Shown here in pieces: positions 23,638-31,245 of a DNA stretch of 64,000 nucleotides. The notes beneath the pieces are model-generated. The model saw only the letters and a program-made list of their open reading frames with translations. It was not told where the DNA came from and searched no databases. The position numbers were made by a program, and so were the translations under genes. Every line of letters starts with the position of its first letter. Position 1 is the first letter of the stretch. The stretch comes from a virus: IMG/VR virus record IMGVR_UViG_3300043470_000815. One strand, given 5' to 3'.

Positions 23638-24063
23638 TTAACCTTTCAATTTCCTTAATTGTTCTTCAAGATCACCCAATGTAACGTTTTTATCACGTTC
23701 AGCGGCAATCCTATCTTCTAGTTTTCTGATTTCGGCTTGTTTGGTTTTTTCGGCGGCGGAATTTTTTTCTTTATCCAACTTGTAACCAATCGTTAGATCA
23801 ATGAACTTATACCACGTATCCAGCCTTTTTTCCAATTTAGATTGGTCTTCCGTCTTAGACCACGAGTCAAGGTCATTGAGTTGATTTTTTTGCCCTTTAA
23901 GGGTCTTTAAAAGCAATCGTAGTGATACTACACTTGCGGCGTTTATGATTTCCCAAGGATTGACCATGTTCGCCCCGAATTTTCCTTCCAACACATCTTC
24001 ACTAAATGATAAGTCAGTATAAAGGGTTCTTAATGTTTGTAAATTTTCTTTTGTAAATTCCAT
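23638..24063 (-). CDS. hypothetical coiled-coil protein
   Basis: 141 aa, charged helical C-terminus. Confidence 0.7.
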   Translation of the reverse strand: MEFTKENLQTLRTLYTDLSFSEDVLEGKFGANMVNPWEIINAASVVSLRLLLKTLKGQKNQLNDLDSWSKTEDQSKLEKRLDTWYKFIDLTIGYKLDKEKNSAAEKTKQAEIRKLEDRIAAERDKNVTLGDLEEQLRKLKG

Positions 24064-24323: not shown

Positions 24324-26171
24324 TTAAATTGTGTTTTGTTTTATTAATTCATAACGGTTTGACATATACAACGTTTTCAACGGTAAGTAAGTATCAATAA
24401 CATCTAAATCGTCAATATTCTTAAAGATTTGATTAATCACACCTGCATTATAACCCATTACGTGTAAAGTATTAGGAACTCCAGCGAACTTCGATGGTTC
24501 GTCCCTACCAGTCACAACGTCCCAAATAACTACAACACCATCCCACCCATAATTCAACATTTTGCGACGAAAATCTAACATGGATTGTGCTGCATTACTT
24601 AGACGATTCATATCACCATCCGAAACAACAACAAAAACGGGATACCCTTGTAGTTGTTCAATTTTATGCTGTTTAGTTAATGGGTCAGATTCAATCCACC
24701 TACCTAATGTGTCGGCAACTGATGTGAAGTTTGTACTTCCACCATTAGAATCAATGAATTTTGATATATTTCCATAGTTTTCACTAAAAGGTTTAGTACG
24801 ATCAATTAATTTTTCTACCTTAGTTGCAACACCTTGTAAAAAACGATTTGGGCGGGTTGTGCCTGTTGAACCATCCGTGTAAACATTTGCTTCCGATCCG
24901 AATGTAATAAGGACGTTATCTAATTCATTGGATGGATTTTTTAACATTGTAATTGTTGATAGCAAACGAGCCATAAACGTTGCAACACCTGTCATACTAC
25001 CCGAAATATCCGCAATTGTCAATACTGGAACATCGAACTTAACTTGATCCAAAATACTTTGTGCATTTAAATTCAGTTGGGTGGTGGATTGTTGCATCTT
25101 TTCCAAAATACTAAACATCGTTTCTCCACCCGTGTTGACTTTGGCCGCTTTTTTAACCTGTGATAACGCAATTTTATCTTCTTCACTGGCAGTTCCTAAA
25201 CGGATTTTTTCAGTCAGTTCACGTTGCGTTTCTTGTAATTTGGCTTTATTGGTTTCCCATTCAAGTAACCATTTTCCTAAGTCATTTTTCCACTTAGATT
25301 TTAATTTATCATCACCATCCAACAACCTACGACGGGTACGGAAACGTGCCGATGACGGCATTTTATCCAACAAATCATTAAATTGAATTTTGTCCAAATC
25401 GTTAATTTTTCCTGTTGAAAATAGAACACTTTCCAATTCTTGGTTGTATTGTTTTTTCCATTCAGCCAACCCCGTGAATTTTTTGTATTTTTCACCACGT
25501 GAAACTTCCCACCCTAATTCAACTGATAATAAATCGTAAAATTTACTACGAAGTTTCATATTGGCTTTGACTAAATCAGACAAATCACGTTGACCAACCT
25601 TTTCACGGGTTGTACGGTCTAACTTTTGACGCTTAGATGTTCGCACGTTTGTTAGGAATTTTGCAATTATCATACAATCCACCACATTACCTTTACGGAT
25701 AATATTTGCGAGGTATTTTGCAACTTCCGATAGATCAACACATTCCAACATGTTAATGTTTTCGGTTACTTGTTTACTACCAGTTTTTGTCTTGACACGT
25801 GATGCTAATACGTTGTCCAATGTGGTATATTGCCTTATACAATCGCTTGTGACGAACTTTAGGTATTGGGTTGGATGATTTAGCCTTGTCCAATTTAAGA
25901 TTGTCCTAAACGCTTCACGGTTGGAATTACCACCGTTATCTAACGAAGTTTCATTTCGTAGAACGTTATGTGTTCGGTTGGAAATGTCGCCACAACTGAA
26001 TGCAATTATCCAAAACAATTGTTTTTCTTGTTCGGTTTTACAATCGCGGAATGCGTTGGTTAGAATTGCGGGTGTAATTTTACCTGATTGGGCAGCCTGA
26101 TAAAATTCAAATAAAGCAAGTTTTCCATAAAATGGATTTTCACTTGCGGGAGTTTTTAATGAAACTTTCAT
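24324..26171 (-). CDS. DUF2828-like (TROVE/Ro60-related) vWA-domain protein
   Basis: C-terminal vWA with MIDAS DISGS, STNF, VVSDG, VVIWDV, VMGYN; N-terminal helical region with GGNSNREAFRTILNW..HP resembling DUF2828. Confidence 0.7.
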   Translation of the reverse strand: MKVSLKTPASENPFYGKLALFEFYQAAQSGKITPAILTNAFRDCKTEQEKQLFWIIAFSCGDISNRTHNVLRNETSLDNGGNSNREAFRTILNWTRLNHPTQYLKFVTSDCIRQYTTLDNVLASRVKTKTGSKQVTENINMLECVDLSEVAKYLANIIRKGNVVDCMIIAKFLTNVRTSKRQKLDRTTREKVGQRDLSDLVKANMKLRSKFYDLLSVELGWEVSRGEKYKKFTGLAEWKKQYNQELESVLFSTGKINDLDKIQFNDLLDKMPSSARFRTRRRLLDGDDKLKSKWKNDLGKWLLEWETNKAKLQETQRELTEKIRLGTASEEDKIALSQVKKAAKVNTGGETMFSILEKMQQSTTQLNLNAQSILDQVKFDVPVLTIADISGSMTGVATFMARLLSTITMLKNPSNELDNVLITFGSEANVYTDGSTGTTRPNRFLQGVATKVEKLIDRTKPFSENYGNISKFIDSNGGSTNFTSVADTLGRWIESDPLTKQHKIEQLQGYPVFVVVSDGDMNRLSNAAQSMLDFRRKMLNYGWDGVVVIWDVVTGRDEPSKFAGVPNTLHVMGYNAGVINQIFKNIDDLDVIDTYLPLKTLYMSNRYELIKQNTI

Positions 26172-26225
26172 TAATTTGTAAGTTAATAAGTGAAAAAAAA
26201 AATAAAATACTACCTAATGGTTAAA

Positions 26226-26447
26226 TTAAGGCAATTTTGAATATTCATAAATTATACGCATTTTATCCCATAATTCTATTTCGATTTCTCGTTCATCGGG
26301 TAATGAAAATATCAAAGTTCTTTTCATTTCGCCTATTCGATAAGATGAAATATTATTTATTTCGGGTATTAATGCTTCGTAAAATTGTACGAATTTTCCG
26401 TTGGGAGTTAAATCTTTGAATATTTCGGATATTTGTGATTCTGTCAT
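26226..26447 (-). CDS. hypothetical protein
   Basis: 73-aa ORF between RNA elements and vWA gene. Confidence 0.55.
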   Translation of the reverse strand: MTESQISEIFKDLTPNGKFVQFYEALIPEINNISSYRIGEMKRTLIFSLPDEREIEIELWDKMRIIYEYSKLP

Positions 26448-26486
26448 ATTAAATTTATTTAATCTTTTTATTGTTAAATTATTAAG

Positions 26487-26600
26487 CAGGGGTTATTGGA
26501 CTCGAACCAATATTTCGACCTTGGAATGGTTGTTAAATGAATTGTAAGTAATCAAATGAATACTTTAATTTACGCGTCCTACCAGTTAGACTAAACCCCT
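26487..26600 (-). ncRNA. tRNA-shaped RNA with inserted helix-ACAAU module
   Basis: acceptor AGGGGTT/AACCCCT, D arm GTCT..GGAC, T arm ATTGG-TTCGAGT-CCAAT; hairpin AAGTATTC/GATTACTT + ACAAT between D arm and a weak TCC anticodon arm. Confidence 0.75.
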
Positions 26601-26781
26601 TAATTGTTAATATTAGGCAAGAACCAAAAAATATATGAATATTACATATATCCACTTCTTAGGAACAATACTGTGTTTTTGATTCCTACCCATTTATTTA
26701 AAGTTAGTGTGAATAATATTCACCGTGTTTGTAACAGAAATCTGTTACTTAAAGAGACAGAAGGTAAACTTCTGTTTAAAA

Positions 26782-26880
26782 AAATCCACTTGTTGTTGTC
26801 CACCACTGGACGAATCACCATACATGAAGGTAAATATAAGAATCGAACTTATCATTTTTTAATGTATTGTAAGTGGATTT
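26782..26880 (-). ncRNA. Y RNA (YrlA)-like circularly permuted tRNA mimic
   Basis: terminal helix AAATCCACTT/AAGTGGATTT + ACAATAC; inside in order T arm (ATAAG-TTCGATT-CTTAT), loop-closed acceptor-like stem, D arm (GTCC-AGTGGT-GGAC). Confidence 0.75.
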
Positions 26881-26934
26881 AAAATTTATGTTTAAATCCC
26901 GATAGAATTAAAGTTAATCTTTGTGATTTAATTG

Positions 26935-27086
26935 TCGGGGAGGTGGGAATCGAACCCACGTTGTATAATATATCAGATTATTTTATATGTTAAAAGTATT
27001 GTAAGTAAATTAAACTCTGAATTAATCGTTAGTATTTTAATTGATAAAGTTTTTAATCTACTCATTTCCAGCGTTTTAACTCCCCT
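26935..27086 (-). ncRNA. tRNA-shaped RNA with helix-ACAAU module in place of the anticodon arm
   Basis: acceptor GGGGAG/CTCCCC, T arm GTGGG-TTCGATT-CCCAC, internal helix GAGTAGATT/AATTTACTT + ACAATAC. Confidence 0.7.
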
Positions 27087-27092
27087 GTATTT

Positions 27093-27311
27093 CTAAAATC
27101 TTTTCAACTTTTCGTATAAATCCCAAAAAACACTTCCTATACAAATGAATGTTCCTGTACATAAAACAACGAAAGATATTTGCAATTTAATCCATGTCGA
27201 TGTATTATACGCACCATTATCATCAGCATAAACCGAAATAGCCGTCAATACAACTATATTAGAAAACGCTAAGTATAAGAAAAACAATTTACTAATTAAT
27301 TCGATGCTCAT
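27093..27311 (-). CDS. small membrane protein
   Basis: two hydrophobic helices. Confidence 0.6.
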   Translation of the reverse strand: MSIELISKLFFLYLAFSNIVVLTAISVYADDNGAYNTSTWIKLQISFVVLCTGTFICIGSVFWDLYEKLKRF

Positions 27312-27631
27312 AGAATATTCCGTTTGCGGTTAAATATCCAGTTACATCTTCTTTGTATAAAAAGTGCATTACTGGACAAAATTTACCATTGTCATTAAGA
27401 TAACCGAATACATATTCGGTATTACCGTTAATCGGGTCTTTTGGATATAAAAAGGATTCAAGTCCTTCAAAGTTTAATATTGATGTTTGTGTCATTTTAT
27501 TTTAAAGTTTAATTATTTAATTTAAAAAATGAACTATTTGGACTGAAAATATCCACCCTATTCACACTCGACTTTACTTGCATAGTTTCCGACCGTATAG
27601 GCTCTTGTTGTGACAATAGTTCATATTAAAA

Positions 27632-29635: not shown

Positions 29636-30070
29636 TTATTGTTTAATATGTGATTTTTTACCACCACAAGATCGTGAACAACATGGTTTAAACGTTGGAT
29701 TTTTAACAAGTTTATAATTGACATGATTACCCGCTTTGATAAATTCTTTATTACAAACCGGACATATAAAACATAAATATTTTTTTGTTATATTTCTGTG
29801 TTCTCTATCTTTTTTGTTATTTTCTTTAGGTGTTAAAATTTGTAAATTATCAATGACATCGTTTAAAGGATTATTATCTATATGATCTACGTGTTCATTT
29901 TTTAATAAAAACCTTTCAAGTTTACAACACATTAAATATCTAGCATACGACATACTTGTTCGCGAATTATCGTTTTTTACTAAAACAACTAAATTTCTAG
30001 GTTCTTTATTTTGTAATAAATAAATTGCTTTATAATCTTCTATAAATGGAATTTTTAGTTCGATTTTCAT
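29636..30070 (-). CDS. free-standing HNH homing endonuclease
   Basis: YARYLM..HVDHIDNNPLNDVIDNLQIL HNH motif plus C-terminal CPVC..CCSRSC zinc finger. Confidence 0.85.
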   Translation of the reverse strand: MKIELKIPFIEDYKAIYLLQNKEPRNLVVLVKNDNSRTSMSYARYLMCCKLERFLLKNEHVDHIDNNPLNDVIDNLQILTPKENNKKDREHRNITKKYLCFICPVCNKEFIKAGNHVNYKLVKNPTFKPCCSRSCGGKKSHIKQ

Positions 30071-30100
30071 TATTTATATATTCTTTTAACTAAAAGAAAA

Positions 30101-30190
30101 TGCACTTAATTTGTGGGATTTGAACCCACCTTCGTTTGTGTTTGAGACAAATTGTTCACCTAGAACAGTTTTAAATTTATTGTAAGTGCA
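30101..30190 (-). ncRNA. tRNA-like RNA whose acceptor stem is replaced by the helix-ACAAU module
   Basis: terminal TGCACTT/AAGTGCA + ACAATA; inside D arm TGTTC/GAACA, anticodon arm TTTGT-CTCAAAC-ACAAA, T arm GTGGG-TTCAAAT-CCCAC. Confidence 0.75.
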
Positions 30191-30194
30191 ATAG

Positions 30195-30266
30195 TACCCC
30201 GTATGGGAATCGAACCCATATTTGTAGATCGAAAATCTACTATACTAACCGTTATATGAACGGGGC
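30195..30266 (-). tRNA. tRNA-Glu(TTC)
   Basis: cloverleaf: GCCCCGT/ACGGGGT, anticodon arm GTAGA-TTTTCGA-TCTAC, T loop TTCGATT. Confidence 0.9.
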
Positions 30267-30328
30267 TAATTTATAACGTGAATGGAAACCCTTCACTAAA
30301 GAGACAGAAGATAAACTTCTGCTTAAAA

Positions 30329-30387
30329 AAATCCACTTATTCGTAAAATACCATAATTTTTGATTTAAAAGTATTGTAAGTGAATTT
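30329..30387 (-). ncRNA. minimal helix-ACAAU RNA
   Basis: AAATTCACTT + ACAATAC ... AAGTGGATTT followed by T-run; no tRNA arms. Confidence 0.65.
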
Positions 30388-30408
30388 ATAATTCCGTTAG
30401 AAATTTAG

Positions 30409-30482
30409 TGGCAGGGGTGTGAATCGAACACACAATAATTGGACTTATGAGACCCACTAGCCTACCAAGGCTTGTCCCTGCT
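30409..30482 (-). tRNA. tRNA-Met(CAT), probably initiator
   Basis: AGCAGGG/CCCTGCC with 1:72 mismatch, loop CTCATAA, T loop TTCGATT. Confidence 0.85.
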
Positions 30483-30506
30483 ATTTATTTTTTTTTTACA
30501 TTTTAG

Positions 30507-30587
30507 TGGGAAAAGATGGAATCGAACCACCAATAAAATTTTTGTAAGTAAATTAAATCTACTAACCTGTTTTTTCCCGATTTTCCC
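30507..30587 (-). ncRNA. tRNA-shaped RNA with helix-ACAA module in place of the anticodon arm
   Basis: acceptor GGGAAAA/TTTTCCC, T arm GGTGG-TTCGATT-CCATC, hairpin AGTAGA/TTTACT + TACAAAA. Confidence 0.7.
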
Positions 30588-30742
30588 TAATTCTAAACCA
30601 TCGAAATGTAAACCTGTTAGGGAGGTTTGTCTTTTAAAAGTACATATAATATAATTACACTTTCCCTTTACAATTTGCTTACACCGATTGGGTGGTTAGT
30701 ATGTAACTTGATATATATTATATACCTGTTTTAATTATACAA

Positions 30743-30794
30743 CAAAGATAAGTACTTTATTTTTACTGTGCAATATCATTAACAACTTGTTAAC
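30743..30794 (-). promoter_or_regulatory. Bacteroidota sigma70-type promoter
   Basis: GTTAACAAGTTGTTAATGATATTG-N~20-TATCTTTG. Confidence 0.8.
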
Positions 30795-30802
30795 TTTTAT
30801 TG

Positions 30803-30875
30803 TTGTCACTAAAGGACTCGAACCTTTAACCTTCTGACTCAAAATCAGACGCACTACCAATTGTGCTAAGTGACA
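30803..30875 (-). tRNA. tRNA-Gln(TTG)
   Basis: TGTCACT/AGTGACA, D arm GCAC/GTGC, TCTGA-TTTTGAG-TCAGA, T loop TTCGAGT. Confidence 0.9.
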
Positions 30876-30892
30876 TTTTTTAAACTGTTATG

Positions 30893-31063
30893 TGGTTGAG
30901 GTAGGAATCGAACCTACAAACTTGATATTTTTTACCATCTTTTACTACCTTCGATGTTTAATATCGTGCTGGTTTACTGTTCATAAGTAGTATATCATGG
31001 AGTTTACCCATAATCAATTGTATTGAACTTCACCAACGCGTTTACCAATTTCGCCACCCAACC
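30893..31063 (-). ncRNA. Leu-like tRNA scaffold with ~100-nt insertion in the anticodon arm
   Basis: GGTTGGG/CTCAACC, D arm GGCGAAATTGGTAAACGC, T arm GTAGG-TTCGATT-CCTAC, 171 nt in total. Confidence 0.7.
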
Positions 31064-31081
31064 ATTTAAATTTTAAAAAAA

Positions 31082-31138
31082 AATCCACTTAATTATCAAA
31101 TTAAAAGTTTGGTTGTTTTAATGTATTGTAAGTGGATT
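31082..31138 (-). ncRNA. minimal helix-ACAAU RNA
   Basis: AATCCACTT + ACAATAC ... AAGTGGATT then long T-run; ends identical to element 26782-26880. Confidence 0.7.
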
Positions 31139-31169
31139 AATATTTTAATATCTACTTTTAGATATTCTG

Positions 31170-31245
31170 TGCAACTAAATGGACTCGAACCATTAACACC
31201 AAGATTCATAAATGAATCAACTCTAACCAATTGAGTTATAATTGC
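31170..31245 (-). pseudogene. tRNA-like sequence with abnormal 6-nt anticodon loop
   Basis: good acceptor GCAATTA/TAGTTGC, D arm ACTC/GAGT and T arm; anticodon arm GATTC-ATTTAT-GAATC. Confidence 0.6.

What the first reader, a model, noticed from the sequence alone, without database searches (positions are those of the whole stretch)
26782..26880. Circularly permuted tRNA mimic (YrlA-like topology)
Seen: order is 5' helix strand + ACAAUAC, T arm with TTCGATT, acceptor-like stem closed by a 9-nt loop, D arm with GG, then 3' helix strand. Established: this permutation is the architecture described for bacterial YrlA Y RNAs. It is the clearest reason to call the family Y-like.
Basis: partly seen in the sequence, partly recalled or inferred. 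Interest (0 to 1): 0.8.

Follow-up and report, generated by a model that had tools for sequence, protein, structure and literature searches.

The report
Phage tRNA-shaped RNA, Ro60-like partner
This 99-base stretch of a phage genome encodes a small RNA shaped like a tRNA with its ends moved and its anticodon arm missing; it belongs to a large RNA family, absent from Rfam, that clusters beside a gene whose protein is predicted to fold like the RNA-binding ring protein Ro60.

Summary
The order is a 10-bp terminal helix, unpaired ACAAUAC, T arm, acceptor-like stem closed by a 9-nt loop, D arm, then the 3' helix strand.

It is not chance. A covariance model built only from 30 elements of other phages finds it at 59.8 bits (E 3.8e-10). 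That model gives 80 hits in 1.17 Mb around homologues of the neighbouring gene, and none in 977 kb of unrelated viral contigs. Covariation is strong: 95% of cells pair against 66% when shuffled, and 28 of 30 pairs show compensatory changes.

The neighbouring 615-aa protein has no Pfam TROVE hit, but it folds like Ro60/Rsr, a helical domain plus a vWA domain with a MIDAS site. The same "handle" (helix ending ACUU/AAGU plus ACAA) encloses that gene's start codon in 47 of 58 loci. This suggests the protein binds the handle.

The element has YrlA topology but is not a YrlA member. It gets no Rfam YrlA hit and lacks the GNCGAA Rsr motif.

About 46 of 80 relatives keep canonical anticodon arms, so some may be true permuted tRNAs. 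This copy cannot decode.

This scan has noted the same system before on other phage DNA. I found no publication describing it. No RNA data were available.

The parts
26871..26880 (-). Handle, 5' strand AAAUCCACUU. Its last four bases, ACUU, are invariant in the family.
   Evidence: It pairs with 26782-26791. Helix covariation across the family is shown.
26864..26870 (-). Unpaired handle motif ACAAUAC. The family consensus is ACAA(U/A)A.
   Evidence: ACTTACAA with flanks AAGNY...WA. It is invariant in the alignments.
26853..26864 (-). Weak V-like hairpin CAUU-AAAA-AAUG in the linker. It is A/U only and not conserved.
   Evidence: MFE fold. In relatives the linker varies in length and sequence.
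26836..26852 (-). T arm AUAAG-UUCGAUU-CUUAU
   Evidence: The T stem is paired in 99.5% of cells in 77 sequences, and 4 of 5 pairs show compensatory changes.
26813..26835 (-). Acceptor-like stem AUUUACC / GGUGAU(U), closed by the 9-nt loop UUCAUGUAU
   Evidence: All 7 acceptor pairs covary in the family. This copy has a U-U mismatch and one missing base.
26798..26811 (-). D arm GUCC-AGUGGU-GGAC, with A14 and G18G19 equivalents; preceded by U8-like U and C
   Evidence: The D stem is 90% paired and 4 of 4 pairs covary.
26782..26797 (-). Linker AACAAC, where relatives have an anticodon arm, then handle 3' strand AAGUGGAUUU
   Evidence: 46 of 80 relatives have a 5-bp stem and 7-nt loop at this position; 34 do not.
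26778..26784 (-). U run after the handle, a possible 3' end of the transcript
   Evidence: Sequence. The same AAGUGGAUUUUU follows two other handles in the window. No terminator was called by the scan.
24324..26171 (-). Gene for the 615-aa Ro60-like protein P0001: a helical N-terminal domain plus a vWA domain with MIDAS residues D388-x-S390-x-S392
   Evidence: (invariant D388, S390, S392).
26163..26184 (-). Minimal handle AACUU-ACAAAUUAAUGA-AAGUU enclosing the start codon of P0001; a likely translational operator
   Evidence: A covarying handle lies around or just before the start codon in 47 of 58 loci.
31082..31138 (-). Family member: minimal handle-only RNA with the same helix AAUCCACUU/AAGUGGAUU
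   Evidence: 28 bits, E 0.0018.
30330..30386 (-). Family member: minimal handle-only RNA with helix AAUUCACUU/AAGUGGAUU, which includes a G-U pair
30099..30192 (-). Family member: handle UGCACUU/AAGUGCA enclosing a T arm
   Evidence: 26.4 bits.
26487..26600 (-). Acceptor-open tRNA-like gene in which a handle hairpin (AAGUA...UACUU-ACAAUUC) replaces the anticodon arm. It is the unpermuted counterpart of the element.
   Evidence: (tRNA model 42 bits with a 55-nt insert).
26937..27090 (-). A second acceptor-open tRNA-like gene with a handle hairpin (GAGUAGAUUAAA / UUUAAUUUACUU + ACAAUAC) at the anticodon position
   Evidence: Pairing was read directly from the sequence.
30507..30587 (-). A third acceptor-open tRNA-like gene with a short handle hairpin at the anticodon position
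   Evidence: (30.6 bits).

Best explanation
The element is a gene for a small non-coding RNA of about 100 nt. It belongs to a large phage RNA family that is absent from Rfam.

Each family member has two parts:
- A conserved handle: a 9-10-bp helix made by the two ends, whose inner four pairs are always ACUU/AAGU, followed by single-stranded ACAA(U/A)A.
- A tRNA-derived body.

In this copy the body is a circularly permuted tRNA top half plus D arm: T arm, acceptor stem closed by a loop, D arm, and no anticodon arm.

I infer that the handle is the binding site of the neighbouring Ro60-like protein P0001. P0001 would also bind a copy of the handle around its own start codon and so limit its own translation. 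The RNA would then hold a tRNA-shaped elbow and closed acceptor on the protein, as YrlA does on bacterial Rsr. That shape could act as a tether or a decoy for an enzyme that recognises tRNA shape.

Shown by computation: the fold, the family, the covariation, the linkage to the gene, and the Ro60-like predicted fold.

Inferred: transcription as a unit, protein binding, autoregulation, and the tether or decoy role.
For: - **Fold.** The fold is as described.
- **Independent model.** A covariance model built from other phages only finds the element at E 3.8e-10.
- **Linkage to the gene.** There are 80 hits at E<=1e-5 in 1.17 Mb around P0001 homologues, and 79 of them are co-oriented with the gene. 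There are 0 hits at E<=0.001 in 977 kb of unrelated viral contigs.
- **Covariation.** 95.0% of cells pair against 65.7% when shuffled. There are 587 double-sided changes against 162 when shuffled, and 28 of 30 pairs are compensatory. Slid controls pair at 45% or less. The hand-set alignment agrees.
- **Handle helix.** Helices of 8-9 bp occur in 165 of 411 motif sites, against about 37 in offset controls.
- **Ro60-like protein.** The 11 best Foldseek PDB matches to P0001 are all Ro60/Rsr/TROVE over the full length, down to E 3e-7. VIA-align gives Z 13.4 to D. radiodurans Rsr with 394 residues aligned, covering both domains. In the ESM Atlas, TROVE + vWA_Ro60 clusters match at TM 0.54 by query and 0.64-0.67 by target, and DUF2828/DUF7788 clusters at TM 0.60-0.63 by query.
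- **Operator.** The handle encloses or precedes the start codon of the Ro-like gene in 47 of 58 loci, and the helix covaries even where its 3' strand is coding.
- **RNA-level module.** The handle lies inside acceptor-open tRNA-like genes in 52 of 100 ARAGORN 'intron' calls and in 0 of 432 intron-less calls. It therefore acts as an RNA module, not a promoter.
- **Precedent.** YrlA has the same order of parts (PMC4201824).
Against:
- P0001 has no sequence-level TROVE hit, and the TM-scores to Ro60 structures are only 0.33-0.38.
- The handle differs from the Ro-binding motifs of known Y RNAs, GNCGAA or CGAA.
- A phage whose Ro-like protein is 97% identical lacks this element at the same site, so this copy is dispensable or recently acquired.
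- Its acceptor stem and D loop are imperfect.
- Many relatives look like working tRNAs, which a pure mimic model does not explain.
Confidence: 0.6

Rival explanations
1. A working permuted tRNA system. The family would be true circularly permuted tRNA genes. RNase P and 3' processing open the acceptor loop, giving a two-piece or re-joined tRNA. The handle would act as a long variable arm or processing signal, perhaps chaperoned by the Ro-like protein. This copy, lacking the anticodon arm, would be a derivative with an acceptor-end function or none.
For: - 46 of 80 relatives keep a 5-bp stem and 7-nt loop. 45 of these have U33 and 44 have R37.
- They carry 21 different anticodons, and 37 of 46 are not duplicated by canonical tRNAs within the fetched flanks.
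- 17 of 80 have NCCA directly after the acceptor 3' strand.
- Orthologous elements with identical bodies carry the anticodons GUU, UUU, GUC and UCA.
Against: - This copy has no anticodon arm, and its loop reads U-UCA, not NCCA.
- 34 of 80 family members lack the arm.
- In the seven arm-bearing elements I measured by hand, linker lengths on the two sides of the handle sum to 23-33 nt, not a constant. Precise removal of the handle to a 4-5-nt variable loop is therefore not supported (sequences).
- No ligase or splicing endonuclease is a conserved neighbour.
- NCCA and canonical loops could simply be inherited from tandem tRNA genes.
Confidence: 0.17
2. A decaying relic. The element would be a non-functional remnant of a permuted tRNA cassette that lost its anticodon arm. 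It would be carried along in a fast-changing RNA array.
For: - It is absent at the syntenic site of a phage with a 97%-identical Ro-like protein, where another cassette sits.
- It has a U-U mismatch and a one-base deletion in the acceptor stem, a short D loop, and the 60th-best score of 80 hits.
- Its orthologues in L119, L120 and L180 keep the anticodon arm.
Against: - The handle, T arm, D stem and tertiary-contact bases (U8, A14, G18G19, U54U55C56, A58) are all intact.
- Arm-less forms recur in many lineages (34 of 80) with maintained pairing.
- Still shorter forms, a T arm plus closed acceptor only, also keep the handle (L178:1260, L180:3870).
Confidence: 0.13
3. A promoter plus DNA inverted repeat. 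ACTTACAAT would be a phage promoter, since TACAAT resembles a -10 hexamer. The flanking inverted repeats would act at the DNA level, and the handle helix would never form in RNA.
For: - TACAAT matches TATAAT at 5 of 6 positions. The scan lists a sigma-70-like site with this hexamer.
- The motif lies 28-56 nt upstream of the start codon of the Ro-like gene in many loci.
Against: - No -35 element is conserved: positions -15 to -20 peak at 0.41.
- The partner strand covaries at distances of 12 to about 130 nt, and G-U pairs occur on this strand.
- The motif sits in the middle of acceptor-open tRNA-like genes in 52 cases.
- In 64 kb of window it occurs only in the RNA arrays, at the Ro-like gene, and at one other site that looks coding (not checked). 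It is not found ahead of the roughly 70 other genes.
Confidence: 0.06
4. A canonical YrlA Y RNA bound by an orthodox Rsr/Ro60.
For: - It has the same order of parts as YrlA.
- A Ro60-like gene lies next to it.
Against: - The Rfam YrlA model (RF02553, gathering score 69 bits) gives no hit at E<=10 on 26300-27300. The model is in the library, as one search shows.
- The sequence has no GNCGAAN0-1G or CGAA motif.
- The protein has no Pfam TROVE match.
Confidence: 0.03

Closest known systems
YrlA Y RNAs with bacterial and mycobacteriophage Ro60/Rsr (Rfam RF02553; Chen et al. 2014, PMC4201824; Wang et al. 2018, bioRxiv 10.1101/312249)
   Same: - Terminal helix formed by the 5' and 3' ends, with a protein-binding motif on the 5' side.
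- The same order of parts: V, T arm, closed acceptor-like stem, D arm.
- tRNA elbow nucleotides are kept.
- Encoded beside a gene for a Ro60-shaped protein with a vWA/MIDAS domain.
   Different: - The handle is ACUU/AAGU + ACAA(U/A)A, not GNCGAAN0-1G.
- No Rfam YrlA hit.
- The partner is a remote, DUF2828-like relative with no Pfam TROVE match.
- The RNAs come in arrays of up to about ten per locus.
- The same handle is also attached to complete tRNAs, to acceptor-open tRNA-like genes and to bare hairpins.
- The handle also encloses the protein's own start codon.
Thermus phage phiLo Ro60 with Yrl1/Yrl2 (PMC12135203; PDB 9KOP, 9L5Y)
   Same: - A phage-encoded Ro60-type protein with small RNAs encoded upstream of its gene.
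- The structures 9kop and 9l5y are among the fold matches to P0001.
   Different: - phiLo Yrls are stem-bulge-stem RNAs with a CGAA motif and no tRNA-like body is described.
- The phiLo protein is a recognisable Ro60 homologue.
Circularly permuted tRNA genes of Cyanidioschyzon merolae, green algae and Thermofilum pendens (from my own knowledge: Soma et al. 2007; Chan et al. 2011)
   Same: - The 3' half (T arm, acceptor 3' strand) lies upstream of the 5' half (acceptor 5' strand, D arm).
- A short spacer closes the acceptor stem.
- The termini are joined by a helix.
   Different: - Those use a bulge-helix-bulge motif cut by the splicing endonuclease, then circularisation.
- Here the helix is a 9-bp handle with ACAA.
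- No endonuclease or ligase is linked.
- The linkers do not fit precise excision.
- This copy lacks an anticodon arm.
- My literature search found no such genes reported in phages or bacteria.
Two-piece (permuted) tmRNA
   Same: - Permuted gene order: T arm and acceptor 3' strand, then spacer, then acceptor 5' strand.
- A tRNA-like domain without an anticodon arm.
   Different: - No tag reading frame or pseudoknots.
- ARAGORN finds no tmRNA.
- The Rfam tmRNA models match only a T arm, of the neighbouring tRNA-like gene (26943-26960).
Dictyostelid Class I RNAs (Kjellin et al. 2021, PMC7919456)
   Same: - Same design as the handle-only members of this family: a short stem joining the 5' and 3' ends, a conserved single-stranded motif next to the 5' stem strand, a variable remainder, and a length of about 60 nt.
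   Different: - Eukaryotic, with Rnp1A as the known binding protein.
- I could not read the 11-nt motif from the paper's text, so any sequence likeness to CUUACA rests on memory and on an earlier scan note. I did not test it.

Membership tests
YrlA (Rfam RF02553) | Scores at or above the family's gathering score (69 bits) with the Rfam covariance model | tested here: not met
   No YrlA match at E<=10 in 26300-27300 on either strand. The model is in the library and gives only a chance 17-bit hit elsewhere.
YrlA (Rfam RF02553) | GNCGAAN0-1G motif near the 5' end, the proposed Rsr contact (PMC4201824) | tested here: not met
   The sequence of 26782-26880(-) holds no CGAA. Its 5' motif is CCACUUACAAUAC.
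YrlA (Rfam RF02553) | Order of parts: 5' strand, V, T arm, closed acceptor-like stem, D arm, 3' strand | tested here: met
   compared with the description.
YrlA (Rfam RF02553) | tRNA-like conserved nucleotides in the T and D loops that allow the elbow to form | tested here: met
   T loop UUCGAUU (U54 U55 C56, A58). D loop AGUGGU (A14, G18 G19). A U8 equivalent is present.
YrlA (Rfam RF02553) | Encoded next to a TROVE-domain Ro60/Rsr gene | tested here: inconclusive
   The neighbour P0001 has a Ro60-like predicted fold. It has no Pfam TROVE hit, and 3 of 42 relatives give only a weak DUF2828 hit.
YrlA (Rfam RF02553) | Carries tRNA modifications and binds Rsr in vivo | not testable with these tools
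   Needs RNA from infected cells.
   AAAUCCACUU / AAGUGGAUUU plus ACAAUAC.
   59.8 bits, E 3.8e-10, model positions 1-116, with the anticodon arm deleted.
   It lies 611 nt upstream of the start codon on the same strand. 79 of 80 family hits are co-oriented with the gene.
Functional tRNA / permuted tRNA gene | Anticodon arm with a 7-nt loop | tested here: not met
   Only AACAAC lies between the D arm and the handle. ARAGORN and the Rfam tRNA model do not call it.
Functional tRNA / permuted tRNA gene | Bulge-helix-bulge motif at the joined termini | tested here: not met
   The termini form a continuous 10-bp helix with a one-sided ACAAUAC, not two 3-nt bulges around 4 bp.
Ro60/TROVE proteins (for the partner P0001) | Pfam TROVE (PF05731) match | tested here: not met
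   None for P0001 at E<=1, and none among the 25 families listed for its 41 relatives in A1. PDB sequence and profile searches are also negative.
Ro60/TROVE proteins (for the partner P0001) | Helical-repeat N-terminal domain followed by a vWA domain with MIDAS DxSxS, matching Ro60 structures over both domains | tested here: met
   Foldseek top 11 matches are all Ro60/Rsr/TROVE. Z 13.4 with 394 residues aligned to 2nvo. TM 0.54 by query and 0.64-0.67 by target to TROVE clusters. D388, S390 and S392 are invariant. TM to PDB chains is low (0.33-0.38), so this is a remote likeness.
Ro60/TROVE proteins (for the partner P0001) | Binds its partner RNA | not testable with these tools
   Inferred only, from linkage and from the handle at the start codon.

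The most novel reading that the evidence does not exclude
The arm-bearing relatives of this element would be genuine circularly permuted tRNA genes of bacteriophages. I found none reported outside eukaryotes and archaea (own knowledge). They would mature into working two-piece or re-joined tRNAs, with the handle as an open variable arm held by a Ro60-like protein. Arm-less copies such as this one would be derived regulators or decoys of the same particle.
Probability: 0.15. Interest if true: 0.9.

Novelty: new variant of a known kind. Interest (0 to 1): 0.68.

Why it matters
Ro60/Y RNA particles are known in animals, bacteria and a few phages, but what their tRNA-like modules do is still unclear.

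This locus shows a second, apparently widespread phage version:
- The protein family has at least 252 homologues in metagenomes and no cultured representative detectable by tblastn.
- The protein is remote from known Ro60, and the handle is different.
- There are arrays of RNAs that display different tRNA parts.
- The protein's own mRNA carries a built-in operator.

The same handle is attached to whole tRNAs, permuted tRNAs, tRNA top halves and bare hairpins. That makes a natural series for asking which tRNA feature the particle presents, and to what.

If some members are working permuted tRNAs, that would extend permuted tRNA genes to bacterial viruses.

Tried and rejected
- **Rfam.** The gathering-threshold scan of the whole window gave only tRNAs. 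The E<=10 scans of 26300-27300 and 30050-31200 gave nothing relevant.
- **14-mer scan.** A scan of viral contigs for TCCACTTACAATAC gave only single chance matches. I reused those contigs as a negative control.
- **Searches against cultured phages.** Megablast of 10 kb found no match. tblastn of P0001 found no match at E 1e-10 or at 0.01.
- **Own genome.** It is not held.
- **Sequence searches on P0001.** Pfam, PHROGs, PDB sequence and PDB profile searches gave no informative hit.
- **Intron-like excision of the handle.** Rejected for now. In seven arm-bearing elements measured by hand, linker sums vary from 23 to 33 nt, and no ligase or endonuclease is linked.
- **Promoter reading.** Judged unlikely.
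- **Conserved neighbour P0122.** The model is confident, but Pfam gives only coiled-coil noise and the PDB gives no fold match.
- **Terminator scan.** It found none in 26100-27400.

Full report
**What is there**

The window is AT-rich (about 31% GC), and in the part examined (17.6-36.5 kb) almost all long ORFs lie on the minus strand. It also carries a minus-strand tRNA cluster, so it looks like a large phage.

- a 10-nt 5' strand AAAUCCACUU
- unpaired ACAAUAC
- a weak A/U hairpin
- T arm AUAAG-UUCGAUU-CUUAU
- acceptor 3' strand AUUUACC
- a 9-nt loop
- acceptor 5' strand GGUGAU(U)
- D arm GUCC-AGUGGU-GGAC
- linker AACAAC
- 3' strand AAGUGGAUUU, followed by a U run.

RNAfold returns this multibranch fold at -23.9 kcal/mol, z -2.83.

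**It belongs to a family**

The octamer ACTTACAA recurs eight more times on the same strand of the window. Seven of these lie in the two RNA arrays or at the gene downstream.

The 615-aa protein encoded 611 nt downstream (P0001) has at least 252 homologues in metagenomic data. I fetched 59 viral loci around homologues. In them ACTTACAA is massively enriched on the gene's strand, next to the gene. The consensus is AAGNY-ACUU-ACAA-WA.

The bases before ACAA pair with a partner 12-130 nt downstream to give an 8-9-bp helix in 165 of 411 sites. Offset controls give about 37. The outer pairs covary freely, while ACUU/AAGU is fixed.

I call this helix plus ACAA the handle.

**The permuted tRNA-like body is conserved**

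About 50 elements parse cleanly as follows: handle 5' strand, ACAA, linker, T arm, acceptor 3' strand, short loop, acceptor 5' strand, UA, D arm, anticodon arm or nothing, linker, handle 3' strand.

RNAalifold on a MAFFT alignment recovers the handle, T stem and acceptor stem. 15 of 18 pairs show double-sided changes.

With a structure I set by hand on 30 sequences from other phages, 90.7% of cells pair against 66.2% when shuffled.

The covariance model built from these 30 (R1) contains no window sequence. Its results:
- It finds the element end to end at 59.8 bits, E 3.8e-10, with the anticodon arm deleted.
- It finds 80 elements at E<=1e-5 in 1.17 Mb of loci, 79 of them co-oriented with the gene.
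- It finds none at E<=0.001 in 977 kb of unrelated viral contigs.

On the 77 distinct hits, 95.0% of cells pair against 65.7% when shuffled and at most 45% when slid. 28 of 30 pairs have compensatory changes. That alignment was fitted to the model, which favours pairing, but the untuned alignments agree.

**The same handle appears in other topologies**

- **Acceptor-open tRNA-like genes.** The window has three in which a handle hairpin replaces the anticodon arm: 26487-26600, 26937-27090 and 30507-30587. These are the unpermuted counterparts of the element.
- **ARAGORN calls.** In the loci, 52 of 100 tRNAs that ARAGORN calls 'with intron' hold the motif. None of the 432 intron-less calls does.
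- **Other forms.** The handle also brackets complete tRNAs as leader and trailer (for example L118:8846-8955). It also closes bare hairpins of about 55 nt (31082-31138, 30330-30386).
- **Likely origin.** Tandem tRNA genes naturally give the order T arm, acceptor 3' strand, spacer, acceptor 5' strand, D arm. The Rfam YrlA model even gives a weak hit across such a junction. A tandem duplication of a handle-bearing tRNA-like gene, followed by loss of the outer halves, would produce the permuted form.

**The partner protein**

By sequence P0001 is an orphan: no Pfam, PHROG or PDB hit. The only weak signals are VWA_2 in 18 of 42 relatives and DUF2828 in 3 of 42. It has an invariant DxSxS MIDAS motif at residues 388-392.

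Its AlphaFold model has pLDDT 79. The structural comparisons are:
- The 11 best Foldseek PDB matches are all Ro60, Rsr or TROVE structures aligned over the full length, with E down to 3e-7 but TM only 0.33-0.38.
- VIA-align gives Z 13.4 to D. radiodurans Rsr with 394 residues aligned across both domains. Isolated vWA domains align over only 160-196 residues.
- The ESM Atlas places it next to viral DUF2828/DUF7788 clusters (TM 0.60-0.63) and TROVE + vWA_Ro60 clusters (TM 0.54 by query, 0.64-0.67 by target). One cluster carries a mix of both annotations.

I conclude that P0001 is a remote Ro60-like protein. RNA binding itself is untested.

**A probable operator**

In 47 of 58 loci a handle lies within 120 nt upstream of the gene. 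In most of these it encloses the start codon, and its 3' strand lies in the first codons. The two strands still covary, for example cguuacuu...aaguaacg and uuuucacuu...aagugaaaa.

In the window the handle is a 5-bp version, AACUU-ACAAAUUAAUGA-AAGUU (26184-26163). This is the classic layout of a translational operator that mimics a protein's RNA ligand. It is my main argument that P0001 binds the handle.

**Comparison with YrlA**

Chen et al. 2014 define YrlA by a 5' GNCGAAN0-1G motif, V, T, a closed acceptor-like stem and D, encoded beside a TROVE gene. Phage phiLo Yrl RNAs also rely on a CGAA motif.

The element shares the topology and the elbow nucleotides. It fails the Rfam model and lacks the motif. 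So it works like YrlA, probably, but it is not a YrlA.

**What does not fit a pure mimic**

- 46 of 80 relatives keep an anticodon arm with a canonical loop: 45 have U33 and 44 have R37.
- They carry 21 different anticodons, and 37 of 46 are not duplicated by canonical tRNAs in the fetched flanks.
- 17 of 80 have NCCA right after the acceptor 3' strand.
- Orthologous elements with identical bodies carry GUU, UUU, GUC or UCA.

These members may be working permuted tRNAs, or young derivatives of tandem tRNA genes.

Against precise excision of the handle: in seven arm-bearing elements measured by hand, the linkers sum to 23-33 nt rather than a constant. Also, the only conserved neighbour besides P0001 is a 141-aa helical protein of unknown fold.

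This copy has no anticodon arm and its loop reads U-UCA, so it cannot decode.

**This particular copy**

Its orthologues in phages whose Ro-like protein is 55-56% identical (L119:8342, L120:7962, L180:795) share the helix AAUCCACUU/AAGUGGAUU. L119 and L120 also share ACAAUAC and a UUCAC loop start. All three have covarying T and acceptor stems and keep an anticodon arm.

A phage whose protein is 97% identical has a different cassette at this site. The arrays therefore turn over quickly, apparently by recombination at the conserved handles. A relic reading cannot be excluded for this copy. Arm-less forms are nevertheless common (34 of 80) and well kept.

**Rivals and limits**

The promoter reading (TACAAT as a -10 element) is unlikely for four reasons:
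- No -35 element is conserved.
- The partner strand covaries.
- The motif lies inside tRNA-like genes.
- It is absent from the other genes of the window.

No RNA data could be obtained, and no cultured relative was found. Transcription, ends, modification and binding all remain to be shown.

**Prior notes and literature**

Earlier notes of this scan describe the same kind of system on other phage DNA: a Ro60-like/DUF2828 gene with handle-bearing tRNA-mimic RNAs. I treated them as leads and tested the points above independently on this locus.

Literature searches found no description of this RNA family or of permuted tRNAs in phages.

Noticed in passing
window 26487-26600, 26937-27090, 30507-30587 (minus): Three acceptor-open tRNA-like genes in which a handle hairpin (AAGU...ACUU + ACAA) occupies the anticodon-arm position. 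ARAGORN and Rfam read two of them (26487-26600, 30507-30587) as tRNAs with an insert; the third was read from the sequence. In related loci 52 of 100 such 'intron' calls hold the motif.
   Followed up: partly
window 26163-26184 (minus), and 47 of 58 related loci: A handle encloses the start codon of the Ro60-like gene, and its 3' strand often lies in the first codons while still covarying. This is a likely autoregulatory translational operator.
   Followed up: partly
L136:8747-8859, L143:12448-12566, L152:12445-12555, L163:12502-12615: Orthologous permuted elements share the same handle, T arm, acceptor and anticodon stem, but carry different anticodons: GUU, UUU, GUC and UCA. UCA would read UGA.
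   Followed up: no
window 23638-24063 (minus): A 141-aa helical protein (P0122) is the only other gene conserved next to the Ro60-like gene, in 23 of 56 loci, directly before or after it. The AlphaFold model is confident (pLDDT 90) but has no Pfam or PDB fold match.
   Followed up: partly
window 26716-27516 versus L177:2454-2733: A phage whose Ro-like protein is 97% identical carries a different RNA cassette here and lacks the element, the tRNA-like gene at 26937-27090 and two small ORFs. The sequence breakpoints fall at the conserved handle ends.
   Followed up: partly
window 26750-26774 and 30297-30321 (minus): A 25-nt hairpin, CAGAAGUUUAYCUUCUGUCUCUUUA, follows two handles directly after their U runs. 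It may be a terminator or another protein site. The terminator scan did not call it.
   Followed up: no
window 30893-31063 and 31169-31245 (minus): The first is a tRNA with an insert of about 100 nt that lacks the ACUUACAA motif. The second is a tRNA-like gene that ARAGORN reports with a two-base anticodon.
   Followed up: no
window 29636-30070 (minus): An HNH endonuclease ORF lies inside the RNA array and is absent from the close relative L177, so it is probably a mobile insertion.
   Followed up: no
L178:1260-1349, L180:3870-3959: These are still shorter family members: a handle plus only a T arm and a closed acceptor stem (a tRNA top half). L180's copy has ACCA after the acceptor 3' strand.
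   Followed up: no
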